64,000 nucleotides of DNA from Bacteroidota bacterium (GCA_033854175.1 JAWOKN010000096.1:73725-137724), one strand, 5' to 3'; shown: positions 49,574 through 52,958, numbered from the stretch's first letter. The notes: a model not told the origin generated them from the sequence alone. A program made the numbers and translations.

Positions 49574-50134
49574 GTGGATAAAATACAGGTAGATATTCTT
49601 GGATTATCAACTAGCCCTGCGAGCGGCGGTGCCTATGCGCTCATATTGAAGGAGGTTAACGGTAACAGGCGGCTTCCCATTATCATAGGAGCCTTTGAAG
49701 CGCAATCAATCGCCCTTGAAATGGAGGGGATTAAACCACCGCGACCCCTGACACATGACCTCATGAAGAATATAATTGAAAGCATGGGTACTGAGTTGGC
49801 TGAAATCACCATTAGTGAGCTGAAGGATGGCACATTCTACGCAAAGTTATCGTTCGACACACAGGAGATAGACGCACGACCGAGCGATGCGATCGCCCTC
49901 GCGGTCAGATTCGGGGCGCCCATTTATGTTGCTGAACGTGTGATGGATGAAGCGTCGTTTTTACCTGAGGAAGAATCTGAAACAGCAGACGGAACACAAC
50001 GGAAGACGAAAGAGACAAAACTTACCCGCATTGAAGCACTTCGTGCTCAGCTCAAAGACGCGGTTGAGCGTGAAGATTACGAAAAGGCCGCAAAAATTAG
50101 GGATGAATTGCGGAACATTGAACAACGTCATTGA
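49574..50134 (+). CDS. Bifunctional nuclease (DUF151) with a C-terminal UVR motif
   Basis: LPIIIGAFEAQSIALEMEG...RPLTHDL...ARPSDAIALAVR and EDYEKAAKIRDEL. It starts with GTG. Confidence 0.75.
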   Translation: MDKIQVDILGLSTSPASGGAYALILKEVNGNRRLPIIIGAFEAQSIALEMEGIKPPRPLTHDLMKNIIESMGTELAEITISELKDGTFYAKLSFDTQEIDARPSDAIALAVRFGAPIYVAERVMDEASFLPEEESETADGTQRKTKETKLTRIEALRAQLKDAVEREDYEKAAKIRDELRNIEQRH

Positions 50135-50850
50135 TATCTTTTCTTTACCAACCTTACCATCTCCTTAACCGCACGATCCAGACCGACGAAAAGAGCACGC
50201 ACGATAACCGCGTGACCGATACTCACTTCTTCAATCTGTCCGATACGGGCCAGCGGAGCTGTGTTGGAATAATTCAGTCCATGTCCCGCGTTCACACCAA
50301 GCCCGACAAGCTGGCCGTACGCCGCCATGGTCTTGATTGTCCGGAGCAAATGCTTCCGGGCTGAATCCGTCCGTGCATTCGCATACTCACCGGTATGGAG
50401 TTCGATCATGTCGGCTCCGACCCTCACTGCAGCATCGATCTGTAATTTTACGGGATCGATGAAAAGGCTGACGGGTATTCGGGCGGAATGAAATTTCCTT
50501 ATTGTTTTATCGAGGGAGGACTGCAGCCGCACTACATCCAATCCCCCCTCGGTTGTAAGCTCACGGCGTTTCTCGGGTACGAGGGTAACCAGGTCGGGTT
50601 TGAGACGGAGTGCAATGGCGACAATTTCCGGAGTGGCGGCCATTTCCAGATCAAGTTTTGTAGAAATTACGGAACGTAGGAGCCGGAGATCACCGTCCCG
50701 CATATGACGGCGGTCTTCCCTGAGATGACAAACAATTCCATCGGCCCCAGCGTGTTCGACTATTTTTGCGGCTTCCAGGGGCGATGGTTCCGTTCCACCG
50801 CGGGCATTGCGCAACGTGGCCACATGATCGATGTTGATTGATAATCGCAT
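50128..50850 (-). CDS. pdxJ: Pyridoxine 5'-phosphate synthase
   Basis: LSINIDHVATLRNARG, CHLREDRRH and ELHTG. Confidence 0.93.
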   Translation of the reverse strand: MRLSINIDHVATLRNARGGTEPSPLEAAKIVEHAGADGIVCHLREDRRHMRDGDLRLLRSVISTKLDLEMAATPEIVAIALRLKPDLVTLVPEKRRELTTEGGLDVVRLQSSLDKTIRKFHSARIPVSLFIDPVKLQIDAAVRVGADMIELHTGEYANARTDSARKHLLRTIKTMAAYGQLVGLGVNAGHGLNYSNTAPLARIGQIEEVSIGHAVIVRALFVGLDRAVKEMVRLVKKRYQ

Positions 50851-50864
50851 CTCGGGATAGTCGG

Positions 50865-51788
50865 TTATAGTCTTTTCCGGATAATGAAGCGCACGTGCTC
50901 GGGTTTTATACTTACGATTTTTACGCCATCAAGATCATTGAGGTGAGGTGCGACGGATGTGACGGTGTCCTGGACAAGATCGCTGTATGGGACTGTCGGT
51001 TGAAAATCGGTATCCGTCAGCCGTGCGAGCTGATCGATTCCTCCGCGTGCGATGAGATCAATTTTAGGGGGGATGAAAATGACTTCCCTGTTTGTAGGGG
51101 CCCCCTGGCAGTTCATCGTGATCCCGCTGAATGTTTTCTCCGCGAAGGGCTGAACGTTGAGCCGCAGGTGCGTTACTGATGTGAAAAGTTCGATTGAATG
51201 GGTTGTGGGCACTTCAAGAGGGATATCGACATCGAGCGGCGAGTGAAGATTGTCAAATTTCCGGTATTCTGTCGGCCAGCCGGAGATGTTCCCTAGAATG
51301 GTCTGTGAACCCCCTATACGGAGGCTATCGGGGAGGAACTGCATTTGACCGACCTGCCCGTAGCCATCGCGGAACTCGAGAACGATCCGTGGTTCGATCG
51401 GCACCTCTTTTTCTCCATACTCGTCAAGTGCGAGAACAAGCGTATCGGGTTTCACGTCAATGGGTTGCAATACGACCGGGAGCTTAATATGTTCAAGTAG
51501 ATCACGGCCGGTTATGATAAATTTTTCTTCTCCGATAGAGGAGACGTCTATAAAATATTTTACATCGGGTGACAGATAAAGTCCGGCTAGCTGCCATCCG
51601 TTACCCCGCAGACGGACATTGACATTCGTGGGGAGCGGATATTTCAGCGCCTGGCCTTCTTTCATGTTTTCAAGAACGACGGGGATTTGCTTCGTAATGG
51701 TATATTCATCACGCATGTTGATGGATAGCCAGGTCAGAATCGCAAAGATGACCGCTGCGACGATGATATGATAACGTTTCTGATCCAT
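50865..51788 (-). CDS. YbbR-like domain-containing membrane-anchored protein
   Basis: An N-terminal TM helix (IIVAAVIFAILTWLSI) is followed by repeated beta-rich modules (IPVVLENM..., VNVRLRG...), as in YbbR/CdaR proteins. Confidence 0.65.
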   Translation of the reverse strand: MDQKRYHIIVAAVIFAILTWLSINMRDEYTITKQIPVVLENMKEGQALKYPLPTNVNVRLRGNGWQLAGLYLSPDVKYFIDVSSIGEEKFIITGRDLLEHIKLPVVLQPIDVKPDTLVLALDEYGEKEVPIEPRIVLEFRDGYGQVGQMQFLPDSLRIGGSQTILGNISGWPTEYRKFDNLHSPLDVDIPLEVPTTHSIELFTSVTHLRLNVQPFAEKTFSGITMNCQGAPTNREVIFIPPKIDLIARGGIDQLARLTDTDFQPTVPYSDLVQDTVTSVAPHLNDLDGVKIVSIKPEHVRFIIRKRL

Positions 51789-51835: not shown

Positions 51836-51863
51836 AAAACAAAAAACTCCATTGCGGATGGAG
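51836..51863 (-). terminator. Rho-independent terminator of the BMC shell cassette
   Basis: On the minus strand, CTCCAT-ccgca-ATGGAG (51847-51852/51858-51863) is followed by TTTTTTGTTTT (51836-51846). It lies 24 nt after the stop of the 201-aa BMC gene. Confidence 0.65.
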
Positions 51864-51886
51864 TGATGGGAGAAAACATGATAATT

Positions 51887-52492
51887 TTATTTCCTAAACT
51901 TTGCCTTTACAAGTTCGTCAATCAATTCCTGGCGGTTAGCGCGGGAGATTTGCCTCCCGAATATCGCTAGACCGGGGACGGTTCGCGCATAATGTCGGAG
52001 GGCGTGAACGGTCAAATCTTCAAGTTGTTGACGGTAAGTCTTTTCATCCTCAGCCGATGGTTCCTGAATACCCGCATTCGCTTTATCTACCGTTGGGCCG
52101 GTCGTGGTCTCGTCGGCCGCCGCAGTCTGGGTGAATGGGGGAGTTTGTAGTGATTTTTTCTGGCGGGGTGGTGCTGGTCTGGATTCTTCGGGTGATGGTA
52201 CGGGGGGCATAGGTTTCACCGGTGGATAGATAAGGATTTCCGTTTCGTCATCGGGACGGGGGATGACGTGCACAGAAACAAGTTCACCGACGCGCTGGGC
52301 TGCTGCCGCACCGGCATCGACGGCGGCACGGACCGCAGCGACATCACCGCGGAGTTTTATCGTAATAAGTCCTGCTTCTGCCCTCTCCTTGCCGATCAGC
52401 TGAACGTCCGCCGCTTTGACGGCCGCATCCGCGGCCTCAATAGCGCCGACGAGACCCCGAGTTTCAATTAATCCTAAGGCGTAGTCGAGCAT
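51887..52492 (-). CDS. BMC-H domain shell protein with a Pro-rich linker and a Rho_N/HeH-like C-terminal extension
   Basis: Residues 1-85 match PF00936 (LGLIETRGLVGAIEAADAAVKAA...[22 protein letters not shown]). Residues 86-150 are P/T/A/E-rich. Residues 152-197 read LEDLTVHALRHYARTVPGLAIFGRQISRANRQELIDELVK. Confidence 0.85.
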   Translation of the reverse strand: MLDYALGLIETRGLVGAIEAADAAVKAADVQLIGKERAEAGLITIKLRGDVAAVRAAVDAGAAAAQRVGELVSVHVIPRPDDETEILIYPPVKPMPPVPSPEESRPAPPRQKKSLQTPPFTQTAAADETTTGPTVDKANAGIQEPSAEDEKTYRQQLEDLTVHALRHYARTVPGLAIFGRQISRANRQELIDELVKAKFRK

Positions 52493-52520
52493 ACCATACG
52501 AGCAGTTTTAAATTTTCGTG

Positions 52521-52552
52521 ATGAAGGGGAGCAGATGCTGTCTCCCCTTCAT
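52521..52552 (-). promoter_or_regulatory. Intercistronic stem-loop between the two BMC genes
   Basis: A perfect 10-bp stem, ATGAAGGGGA (52521-52530) with TCCCCTTCAT (52543-52552), and a 12-nt loop. No T-run follows on the transcribed strand. Confidence 0.5.
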
Positions 52553-52578
52553 ACGGTTACACATCAAGAGATGAAATG

Positions 52579-52875
52579 CTATTTCGTTTGTGGGCGCTTG
52601 GGGAGAATCATTTCAACATCCATGTGGGGACGCGGGATGACATGGACCGATACAAGTTCACCGACGCGCTGTGCTGCCGCTGCCCCGGCATCGGTTGCTG
52701 CCTTGACAGCTCCGACATCGCCGCGCACCATGACCGTGACATATCCACCCCCGATAACTTCTTTCCCAATGAGGGTGACCTTTGCGGCTTTCACCATTGC
52801 GTCTGCAGCCTCTATCGAACCTACCAGCCCTTTGGTTTCTACCATGCCAAGCGCATCGAGTGATATATCTGACAT
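52579..52875 (-). CDS. BMC-H shell protein (PduA/EutM/CcmK-type hexamer subunit)
   Basis: 98 aa: [75 protein letters not shown]. The PF00936 pattern is canonical. Confidence 0.92.
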
Positions 52876-52929: not shown

Positions 52930-52958
52930 AATATAGCGAATCGGGAGCATATTGTCAA
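52930..52958 (-). promoter_or_regulatory. Near-consensus sigma70 promoter TTGACA-17-TATATT for the BMC cassette
   Basis: On the minus strand the -35 is at 52953-52958 and the -10 at 52930-52935, with a 17-nt spacer. AAGGAG (52885-52890) sits 9 nt before the ATG at 52875. Confidence 0.55.

What the first reader, a model, noticed from the sequence alone, without database searches (positions are those of the whole stretch)
51902..52237. BMC-H paralog with a degenerate pore loop, a 65-aa Pro-rich linker and a C-terminal Rho_N/HeH-like module
Seen in the sequence: in the 201-aa paralog the pore-lining loop reads KERAEAGLITI, whereas its 98-aa neighbour has the K-x-x-I-G-G-G-Y-V-T type loop ([11 protein letters not shown]). 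After the BMC fold comes PPVKPMPPVPSPEESRPAPPRQKKSLQTPPFTQTAAADETTTGPTVDKANAGIQEPSAEDE. That is followed by LEDLTVHALRHYARTVPGLAIFGRQISRANRQELIDELVK. Established knowledge: the helix-extended-helix pattern L..L.V..LR..A...G......R.ELI..L is characteristic of Rho_N/SAP/LEM-type modules, many of which bind nucleic acids. Inference: this shell subunit could display a nucleic-acid- or partner-binding domain on a flexible tether. I do not recognise that architecture from described BMC shell proteins.
Basis: partly seen in the sequence, partly recalled or inferred. Interest (0 to 1): 0.7.

Follow-up and report, generated by a model that had tools for sequence, protein, structure and literature searches.

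The report
Microcompartment shell protein with tethered Rho_N-like domain
This gene encodes a bacterial microcompartment shell hexamer carrying a small folded, probably nucleic-acid-binding domain on a long flexible tether; the family is widespread and was briefly noted in a published catalogue, and it resembles EutK, which helps distribute microcompartments in the cell.

Summary
Window 51887..52492 (-) encodes a 201-aa protein with three parts: a BMC domain (residues 1-80), a disordered Pro-rich linker (81-145) and a confidently folded four-helix C-terminal module (146-201). A canonical 98-aa BMC-H lies just upstream.

The tail is strongly conserved. More than 120 full-length orthologues were found, 470 GTDB species genomes encode it, and there are 565 clusters at 50% identity, mostly BMC-H fusions. 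It is below threshold for Pfam Rho_N, but its profile retrieves certified Rho_N proteins, and its model superposes best on the N-terminus of Rho.

The pore loop is a conserved acidic variant, not a degenerate one.

The architecture is not undescribed. [quoted passage not shown]

New here:
- The tail is assigned a HeH/Rho_N-like fold.
- Canonical AT-hooks occur in many orthologue linkers, though not in this protein.
- The same module occurs inside complete EUT loci of Firmicutes.

The most likely role is a minor shell tile that displays nucleic-acid-binding tethers on the cytosolic face, acting in organelle positioning as EutK does. Binding itself is untested. I rate this a new variant of a known kind, of moderate interest.

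The parts
52930..52958 (-). Sigma-70-like promoter match (TTGACA-17-TATATT, 11/12) upstream of the two shell genes
   Evidence: This is a consensus match only, not proof of function.
52579..52875 (-). Canonical 98-aa BMC-H, the likely major shell hexamer, with a GGGY pore loop and IPRPH edge motif
   Evidence: Pfam BMC E 5.8e-29. NCBIfam EutM equivalog 135.5 bits against a cut-off of 133. A canonical BMC-H lies directly upstream of the tail-bearing gene in 68/74 related loci.
52517..52555 (-). Strong GC-rich hairpin in the 86-nt spacer between the two shell genes
   Evidence: centroid stem, MFE z-score -4.0, 0/200 shuffles fold as well. It is not conserved: the spacer is only 34-54 nt in L001 and L003. 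A role in setting the ratio of the two proteins is speculation.
51887..52492 (-). Gene for the 201-aa BMC-H paralogue with linker and tail (stop codon included)
52253..52492 (-). BMC domain, residues 1-80
   Evidence: Pfam BMC residues 5-80, E 1.7e-28. pLDDT above 90. Edge lysine K26 is invariant.
52367..52387 (-). Pore loop ERAEAGL, residues 36-42: a conserved acidic variant replacing the G-G/S-G motif
   Evidence: Alignment. Among 77 species representatives: ERTDPAM 23, ERADAGL 14, ERTGGGL 4, ERAEAGL 2.
52058..52252 (-). Disordered Pro/Lys/Arg/Glu-rich linker, residues 81-145
   Evidence: pLDDT 43-65 with no secondary structure. Variable in sequence and length among orthologues. Composition P 19%, E 13%, K+R 16%. 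This protein has no AT-hook (PRQKK at the aligned position), whereas 21/119 orthologues have [KR]RGRP.
51890..52057 (-). C-terminal four-helix Rho_N/HeH-like module, residues 146-201
   Evidence: AF2 pLDDT 90.6 for the tail alone and 93-96 in the full-length model. Pfam Rho_N 19.2 bits, below the gathering score of 24.9. Top PDB fold hit is Rho 9ff7_A, rmsd 1.6 A. The profile finds 565 clusters.
51846..51864 (-). Intrinsic-terminator-like hairpin followed by a T-run, 23 nt after the stop codon
   Evidence: pattern match. Fold z-score is only -1.3. It suggests the two shell genes form their own transcription unit.
50865..51788 (-). Context: membrane-anchored YbbR-like protein (307 aa), a frequent downstream neighbour. 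No functional link is shown.
   Evidence: Pfam YbbR 27.4 bits. Orthologues follow the tail gene in 37/69 related loci.
50128..50850 (-). Context: pdxJ, a frequent downstream neighbour
   Evidence: Pfam PdxJ in L001 and L003. Found within 2.5 kb downstream in 47/61 loci.

Best explanation
The 201-aa protein is the specialised, minor BMC-H paralogue of a FRAG1-type bacterial microcompartment in an Ignavibacteria-like genome. It is co-transcribed with the canonical major BMC-H.

Shown: it has an intact BMC domain with the conserved edge lysine, so it should tile into shell facets. Its pore loop is a conserved acidic variant. It carries a disordered linker of about 65 residues and a compact four-helix C-terminal domain homologous to the Rho_N/HeH group.

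Inferred: BMC-H C-termini lie on the concave face, and that face points to the cytosol in solved shells. Each hexamer would therefore display six flexible tethers on the outside of the organelle. The terminal domain, helped in many orthologues by an AT-hook in the linker, would bind nucleic acid, most likely nucleoid DNA. This would couple the organelle to the chromosome and control its distribution or inheritance. That is the role recently demonstrated genetically for EutK, the other BMC-H with a C-terminal nucleic-acid-binding-type domain.
For: - Domain architecture and disorder.
- Conservation of the tail against a variable linker.
- Tiling residue K26 present in 77/77 species representatives.
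- Rho_N/HeH homology: 33/35 tails hit Rho_N (best E 1.5e-5). The tail profile retrieves P0218 and P0255 at about 1e-10 in 1.8 billion proteins, and these score 62.9 and 51.4 bits on Pfam Rho_N. Top fold matches are the Rho N-terminus and phage Rho_N-like or SAP proteins.
- The module is essentially specific to BMC proteins: 102 of the best 150 clusters carry Pfam BMC, and most of the rest are fragments.
- It is a genuine organelle component: the same canonical BMC-H plus tailed BMC-H pair sits between EutQ and EutE in complete EUT loci of Firmicutes.
- DNA clue: canonical AT-hooks ([KR]RGRP[RPK]K) occur in 21/119 orthologue linkers against 0.3 expected from shuffled linkers, with varied flanks.
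- Functional analogy: in Salmonella lacking eutK, Eut BMCs are polar and static (PMC12487888).
- The catalogue calls this FRAG1 domain 'analogous to EutK' (PMC8217296 supplement).
- BMC-H termini lie on the concave face (PMC5534457). That the concave face points outward comes from my own knowledge of Sutter et al. 2017, Science.
Against: - No binding assay exists.
- In Rho, the Rho_N helix bundle is not the main RNA-contacting element, and HeH/LEM folds can bind proteins instead of DNA.
- This protein lacks the AT-hook, and only 9-18% of orthologues have one.
- The tail is only mildly basic, about +2 to +4 by my count from the sequence.
- All fold-search E-values are non-significant because the domain is small.
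- The Pfam gathering score is not reached.
- The orientation of this paralogue in a shell is assumed, not shown.
- BMC-P and cargo genes are not in the window.
Confidence: 0.5

Rival explanations
1. The tail is a protein-protein docking module on the outside of the shell. It would bind, for example, a positioning ATPase or adaptor, a cytoskeletal or membrane partner, or another shell protein, rather than nucleic acid.
For: HeH relatives such as LEM bind proteins (established knowledge). In Rho, the Rho_N bundle is not the primary RNA site. The invariant residues R, R, G-R, S and N could form any polar interface. The tail has only a modest net positive charge.
Against: No conserved candidate partner gene accompanies the tail across FRAG1, orphan and EUT contexts. 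The repeated appearance of AT-hooks in the same linker points to DNA.
Confidence: 0.22
2. The tail faces the lumen and organises cargo or nucleates the enzyme core, working like an encapsulation or scaffold element.
For: Cargo of FRAG1 organelles is unknown. A related 250-300-aa subfamily has an extra amphipathic linker motif (TIERLRKEALG) that resembles encapsulation peptides.
Against: BMC-H C-termini lie on the concave face, which is cytosolic in solved shells (established knowledge). The same tail occurs with different cargo sets, in EUT and in FRAG1 loci. In Salmonella, shell-cargo linkage in EUT is assigned to EutQ.
Confidence: 0.08
3. The protein does not work as an organelle shell tile in this lineage. 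Instead it acts with the neighbouring YbbR-like envelope protein, or with pdxJ, in an unrelated process.
For: A YbbR-like gene follows in 37/69 loci and pdxJ lies within 2.5 kb in 47/61. In L007, a degenerate BMC-like domain that appears to lack the edge lysine still carries the tail and still precedes YbbR. Here the genes sit next to the mreBCD-pbp2-rodA operon.
Against: K26 is invariant in 77/77. A canonical BMC-H partner is present in 68/74 loci. The catalogue reports BMC-P triplets for FRAG1 genomes. A terminator-like site separates the shell genes from ybbR in this window. YbbR is absent from an Ignavibacterium album MAG locus (L047), from EUT loci and from orphan loci. PdxJ has no extension that could serve as an encapsulation peptide (240 aa).
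Confidence: 0.07
4. The extension is a lineage-specific, functionless or purely steric tail.
For: The linker itself is poorly conserved and predicted to be disordered.
Against: The terminal 50 residues have many invariant positions across several phyla, 470 species genomes and 565 clusters. The tail is predicted to fold with pLDDT above 90.
Confidence: 0.02

Closest known systems
EutK (ethanolamine-utilisation shell protein; BMC-H plus C-terminal EutK_C domain, PF16365)
   Same: A single BMC domain is followed by a linker and a small, positively charged helical domain of a nucleic-acid-binding type. It is a minor shell paralogue encoded beside a canonical BMC-H. In Firmicutes EUT loci the tailed protein sits among the shell genes, and those loci show no Pfam EutK_C hit on any listed gene. 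Loss of EutK mislocalises Eut organelles.
   Different: The fold and family differ. EutK_C is a helix-turn-helix-type domain (Tanaka 2010, my own knowledge), and no tail gave any EutK_C hit even at E<=10. Here the domain is Rho_N/HeH-like, the linker is much longer and Pro-rich, and some orthologues add an AT-hook.
FRAG1 BMC locus type (Sutter et al. 2021 catalogue, PMC8217296, supplementary locus descriptions)
   Same: [quoted passage not shown]
   Different: The catalogue does not identify the fold of the domain, its distribution outside FRAG1, the AT-hooks or a function. Those points come from this analysis.
Rho_N (PF07498) and the wider HeH group (SAP, LEM, HeH)
   Same: Helix-extended loop-helix pattern. 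Consistent sub-threshold Rho_N matches. Profile-level links to certified Rho_N proteins. rmsd 1.5-1.6 A to the Rho N-terminus over 46-47 columns.
   Different: It scores below Pfam's gathering threshold. By my reading of the sequences, it has an extra short helix and a roughly 4-residue-longer loop (G-R-x-I-S-R-A-N) before the last helix. It is attached to a shell protein, not to an OB-fold or ATPase.
[quoted passage not shown]
   Same: A minor BMC-H with a C-terminal extension, implicated in the subcellular location of Pdu organelles (as cited in PMC12487888).
   Different: The PduK extension has a putative metal-binding motif and no Rho_N-like domain (catalogue HMM table).

Membership tests
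BMC-H (PF00936 single-domain shell hexamer) | One Pfam BMC domain above the gathering score | tested here: met
   98.8 bits against a cut-off of 24.5, residues 5-80.
BMC-H (PF00936 single-domain shell hexamer) | Edge motifs for hexamer-hexamer tiling: the lysine of K-A-A-N and (P/A)RPH | tested here: inconclusive
   K26 is present and invariant. The motifs read KAAD and PRPD rather than KAAN and PRPH. The catalogue calls this paralogue non-standard at the interface.
BMC-H (PF00936 single-domain shell hexamer) | Forms hexamers that incorporate into a closed shell | not testable with these tools
FRAG1 BMC type (Sutter 2021) | [quoted passage not shown] | tested here: met
   The closest homologues come from Ignavibacteria and Bacteroidota MAGs.
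FRAG1 BMC type (Sutter 2021) | BMC-P triplet (and often a PduS/PduT pair) elsewhere in the genome | not testable with these tools
   Only 64 kb is available, and no BMC-P or further BMC domain was found in it (the BMC-P test used a single query and is weak).
Rho_N (PF07498) | Score at or above Pfam's gathering threshold of 24.9 bits | tested here: not met
   14.7 bits for the full protein and 19.2 bits for the tail alone.
Rho_N / HeH superfamily (homology and fold level) | Profile-level link to certified members, and the same fold | tested here: met
   33/35 tails hit Rho_N. The tail profile hits P0218 and P0255 at about 1e-10, and these score 62.9 and 51.4 bits on Rho_N. The top PDB fold hit is Rho, rmsd 1.6 A, TM 0.64 normalised to the query, although E = 3.3 is not significant.
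EutK_C (PF16365) | Pfam match of the C-terminal domain | tested here: not met
   No hit for any of 35 tails at E<=10, nor for the full protein at E<=1. The NCBIfam EutK match covers only the BMC domain.
SAP (PF02037) | Pfam match | tested here: not met
   Only 2/35 tails hit, at E 0.1.
AT-hook DNA-binding motif | An R-G-R-P core flanked by basic residues | tested here: not met
   Absent from the window protein, which has PRQKK at the aligned position. Present in 21/119 orthologues against 0.3 expected and in 7/77 species representatives.
Nucleic-acid-binding protein (functional class) | Demonstrated binding to DNA or RNA | not testable with these tools
   Requires EMSA, anisotropy or ChIP.

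The most novel reading that the evidence does not exclude
A widespread class of microcompartment shell hexamers carries its own nucleoid tether: a Rho_N/HeH-like domain, often with an AT-hook, on a flexible arm. This would give FRAG1 organelles and some EUT organelles a built-in way to be spaced and inherited by riding on the chromosome, without a ParA/McdAB-type system. It would have evolved independently of, and in parallel with, the helix-turn-helix tail of EutK.
Probability: 0.35. Interest if true: 0.65.

Novelty: new variant of a known kind. Interest (0 to 1): 0.45.

Why it matters
How metabolosomes are positioned and inherited is largely unknown. Only carboxysomes have a defined system (McdAB), and EutK was linked to Eut organelle distribution only in 2025. 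A second, unrelated nucleic-acid-binding-type domain has been fused repeatedly to a BMC-H, and it is conserved in hundreds of species and in at least two organelle types. That argues that displaying such a domain on the shell exterior is a general solution, and it provides a small, tractable module to test. The work also gives a first functional handle on FRAG1 organelles, whose cargo and role are unknown. Finally, it offers a natural example of a shell tile that tolerates a long exterior fusion, which is useful for shell engineering.

Tried and rejected
- A profile search of the tail against PDB sequences gave no hits at E<=10.
A one-sequence template is too weak, so I relied on Pfam and library searches instead.
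- A search of the window for BMC-P or further BMC domains found none beyond the two genes.
- I considered a functional operon with the YbbR-like gene and pdxJ. The synteny is frequent but not universal (37/69 and 47/61). It is missing in an Ignavibacterium album MAG locus (L047), in EUT loci and in orphan loci. A terminator-like site also intervenes here. I therefore treat it as conserved gene order, not as part of the mechanism.
- I rejected the 'degenerate pore' reading. The loop is conserved as a few recurrent variants.
- I looked for the intercistronic hairpin in related loci. Their spacers are too short, so it is not conserved.
- Literature searches combining microcompartment or shell protein with 'Rho termination factor' or 'AT-hook' found nothing relevant. 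Many subscription-journal papers are not in the searchable library, so this is weak evidence of absence.

Full report
**1. What is in the sequence**

On the minus strand, window 51887..52492 encodes a 201-aa protein and 52579..52875 encodes a 98-aa protein. Both match the Pfam BMC domain, with E 1.7e-28 for residues 5-80 and E 5.8e-29.

The 98-aa protein is a canonical BMC-H with the pore loop [11 protein letters not shown] and the edge motif IPRPH. It even passes NCBIfam's EutM equivalog cut-off, 135.5 against 133 bits.

A full-length AlphaFold2 model of the 201-aa protein, built on 78 homologues, splits it into three parts:
- residues 1-80, the BMC fold, pLDDT above 90;
- residues 81-145, no secondary structure, pLDDT 43-65;
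- residues 146-200, four helices, pLDDT 93-96.

The tail modelled alone on 35 sequences gives pLDDT 90.6.

**2. Conservation**

A search of 5.8 billion proteins returned at least 120 full-length relatives. They are 58-80% identical, cover 96-100% of the query (99-100% in all but one), and are 178-234 aa long. Where named, they come from Ignavibacteria/Ignavibacteriales and 'Bacteroidota' MAGs.

In alignments the BMC domain and the last ~50 residues are highly conserved. The tail consensus is SDDExTYRxQLExMTVHxLRRYARxVxGLxIxGRQISRANRxELIxEL. The linker varies in sequence and length.

A pattern scan of one genome per GTDB species found 470 genomes encoding a relative of the tail. The best 80 are labelled Ignavibacteria, Bacteroidota, Chlorobi/Chlorobiaceae or Latescibacterota.

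**3. The pore loop is not degenerate**

Across 77 species-level representatives the loop falls into a few recurrent variants: ERTDPAM in 23, ERADAGL in 14, ERTGGGL in 4 and ERAEAGL in 2. The acidic residue is usually kept, and the edge lysine K26 is present in 77/77. This is a conserved, specialised pore in a protein that keeps its key tiling residue. The interface motifs read KAAD and PRPD rather than KAAN and PRPH. That agrees with the catalogue's distinction between the 'standard' paralogue and this one.

**4. What the tail is**

Pfam Rho_N is the best match but falls below threshold: 14.7 bits for the whole protein and 19.2 bits for the tail alone, against a gathering score of 24.9. The match is consistent, however. 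33 of 35 orthologue tails hit Rho_N, with a best E of 1.5e-5. SAP hits are rare and EutK_C never appears.

An exhaustive HMMER search with the tail profile against 1.84 billion cluster representatives found 565 proteins at E<=1e-3 and 83 at E<=1e-10. Two of them, P0218 and P0255, are non-BMC proteins with repeated modules. They were retrieved at about 1e-10 and score 62.9 and 51.4 bits on Pfam Rho_N, above the threshold. This gives a transitive homology link.

Foldseek of the tail model against the PDB puts Rho first: 9ff7_A, rmsd 1.6 A over 47 columns, TM 0.64. Other Rho entries follow at rmsd 1.5-3.3 A. Against viral models the hits include proteins annotated Rho_N-like and SAP, with TM up to 0.83. 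All these E-values are non-significant because the domain is small, so the fold evidence supports the assignment but does not decide it.

My conclusion is that the tail belongs to the Rho_N/HeH group at superfamily level. It is a distinct, BMC-associated family rather than a member of PF07498 as currently defined.

**5. The tail is essentially a BMC-specific module**

Of the 150 best clusters from the tail search, 102 carry Pfam BMC. Most of the others are short metagenomic fragments or very divergent BMC-like domains. The distance from the end of the BMC domain to the tail ranges from about 0 to 324 residues, with a median of 84.

A large 250-300-aa subfamily has a divergent BMC domain and an extra conserved linker motif, (S/D)TI(E/S)RLR(K/R)EALG.

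**6. Genomic context**

In this window the gene order on the minus strand is:
- mreB, mreC, mreD, pbp2, rodA;
- a promoter-like site;
- the canonical BMC-H;
- an 86-nt spacer with a strong hairpin;
- the tailed BMC-H;
- a terminator-like hairpin;
- a YbbR-like membrane protein;
- pdxJ.

No BMC-P and no further BMC domain is present in the 64 kb.

In 80 related loci the pattern is as follows:
- A canonical BMC-H lies directly upstream in 68/74.
- A YbbR-like orthologue follows in 37/69. Five compared examples, including the window, L006 and L007, share 25-66% identity.
- pdxJ lies within 2.5 kb in 47/61.

The gene upstream of the pair varies. It is rodA here and an AsmA-family gene in L001 and L003.

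Elsewhere the tailed BMC-H appears in other settings:
- It is an orphan gene in a Zixibacteria genome and in another metagenomic contig.
- It lies inside complete EUT-type loci of Firmicutes. In Carboxydothermus ferrireducens the order is EutB, EutC, EutA, EutL-like, EutT, BMC-H, EutN, PduS-like, PduT-like, EutQ, BMC-H, tailed BMC-H, aldehyde dehydrogenase, PTAC. Two further loci keep the same core order.

The canonical-plus-tailed pair is thus a recurring shell cassette in at least two organelle types.

**7. What is already known**

The Sutter et al. 2021 catalogue (PMC8217296) assigns Ignavibacteriae to 'FRAG' organelles. In these, shell genes are scattered over up to six loci, a BMC-P triplet is present, and cargo is unknown.

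[quoted passage not shown] The main text notes that BMC-H extensions of up to 200 residues exist.

I found no paper in the searchable library that links shell proteins to Rho_N or AT-hooks.

For the analogue EutK, a 2025 study showed that deleting eutK leaves Eut organelles polar and static. The authors proposed that its positively charged C-terminal domain binds nucleotides in a ParB-like manner (PMC12487888).

**8. A new clue for DNA binding**

In 21 of 119 orthologues the otherwise fast-evolving linker contains a textbook AT-hook, for example KRRGRPPKK or PKRGRPRKK. Only 0.3 such cases are expected from composition-preserving shuffles of the same linkers, and the flanking sequences differ between orthologues. 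The motif also occurs in 7/77 species representatives and in fragments of other subfamilies.

The counts are inflated by relatedness among the sequences. Even so, an intact core with varied flanks indicates selection. The window protein has no AT-hook; it reads PRQKK at the aligned position.

**9. Mechanism**

Shown:
- a tiling-competent BMC domain;
- a conserved acidic pore variant;
- a disordered tether;
- a folded Rho_N/HeH-like terminal domain with invariant Arg, Ser and Asn residues;
- membership of real organelle loci.

Inferred:
- BMC-H termini lie on the concave face (PMC5534457).
- That face is cytosolic in solved shells (Sutter 2017, my own knowledge).
- The hexamer therefore displays six tethers outward.
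- The terminal domain, with AT-hooks where present, binds nucleic acid, probably the nucleoid.
- This governs organelle spacing or inheritance, as proposed for EutK.

I put this at about 0.5. The main rival is protein-partner docking, at about 0.2. Lumen-facing cargo organisation, a non-shell role with YbbR/pdxJ, and a functionless tail are each unlikely, for the reasons given under the rival explanations.

**10. Verdict**

This is a real, strongly conserved feature. The description of the pore and the claim of novelty are not. I classify it as a new variant of a known kind: a BMC-H with a C-terminal nucleic-acid-binding-type domain, like EutK, but with an unrelated fold. The family has already been catalogued but is uncharacterised. 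Interest is moderate at 0.45. A specialist would not be astonished, but the finding makes microcompartment positioning in FRAG1 and some EUT organelles directly testable.

Noticed in passing
window 50128..51788 (-); L001, L003, L006, L007 and the 80 loci L010-L089: Conserved gene order: canonical BMC-H, tailed BMC-H, a roughly 305-aa membrane-anchored YbbR-like protein, then pdxJ. The YbbR-like gene follows in 37/69 loci and pdxJ lies within 2.5 kb in 47/61. In four loci pdxJ directly follows the tailed gene. No functional link is shown, and a terminator-like site separates the genes in this window.
   Followed up: partly
window 52517..52555 (-): A strong GC-rich hairpin (14-bp stem, z = -4.0) sits in the spacer between the canonical and tailed BMC-H genes. 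It could lower expression of the minor paralogue. It is not conserved in L001 or L003, where the spacer is only 34-54 nt.
   Followed up: partly
orthologues P0007, P0013, P0014, P0019, P0026, P0037, P0044, P0083 and others (linker region): Canonical AT-hook motifs ([KR]RGRP[RPK]K) are embedded in the disordered linker of 21/119 orthologues, against 0.3 expected by shuffling. The window protein has none.
   Followed up: yes
P0142, P0148, P0161, P0166, P0170, P0235 and others; locus L006 10001..10819: A 250-300-aa subfamily with a very divergent BMC domain carries the same tail plus a second conserved linker motif, (S/D)TI(E/S)RLR(K/R)EALG. This is an amphipathic helix reminiscent of encapsulation peptides. 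Its role is unknown.
   Followed up: no
L007 5379..6071 (P0145); also P0156, P0171: These proteins have a degenerate BMC-like N-terminal domain (Pfam BMC 21.6 bits, below threshold) that appears to lack the edge lysine. They still carry the tail. In L007 (P0145) the gene still precedes a YbbR-like gene, and no canonical BMC-H lies beside it. This may be a non-tiling derivative.
   Followed up: partly
P0212 (205 aa, from the tail-profile search): A non-BMC protein combines an N-terminal hydrophobic segment, the tail module and a SPOR (peptidoglycan-binding) domain. The module is therefore occasionally used outside shell proteins.
   Followed up: no
L005 10001..10552 (Carboxydothermus ferrireducens), L090, L091: In Firmicutes EUT-type loci, the tailed BMC-H sits after a canonical BMC-H and before the aldehyde dehydrogenase. 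No gene with a Pfam EutK_C hit is listed in these loci. This suggests it stands in for EutK there.
   Followed up: partly
window 52579..52875 (-): The canonical 98-aa BMC-H passes NCBIfam's EutM 'equivalog' cut-off (135.5 against 133 bits), although there are no eut genes in the window. Automatic annotation would probably name it an ethanolamine-utilisation protein without support. Several JGI records label these BMC-H proteins 'CcmL/EutN', which is the name of the pentamer.
   Followed up: no
P0126, P0129 (metagenomic proteins): These ORFs run from the tail through the normal stop into the YbbR-like N-terminus. They are probably sequencing or assembly errors or read-through calls rather than real fusions.
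   Followed up: no
L047 5602..6168 (Ignavibacterium album MAG); P0124, P0125, P0130: This subfamily has an acidic linker with a short conserved motif just after the BMC domain, (A/L)(K/R)SSR(S/T)xxEVExxLG, in place of the Pro/Lys-rich linker. The YbbR-like gene is replaced by a 563-aa gene on the opposite strand.
   Followed up: no
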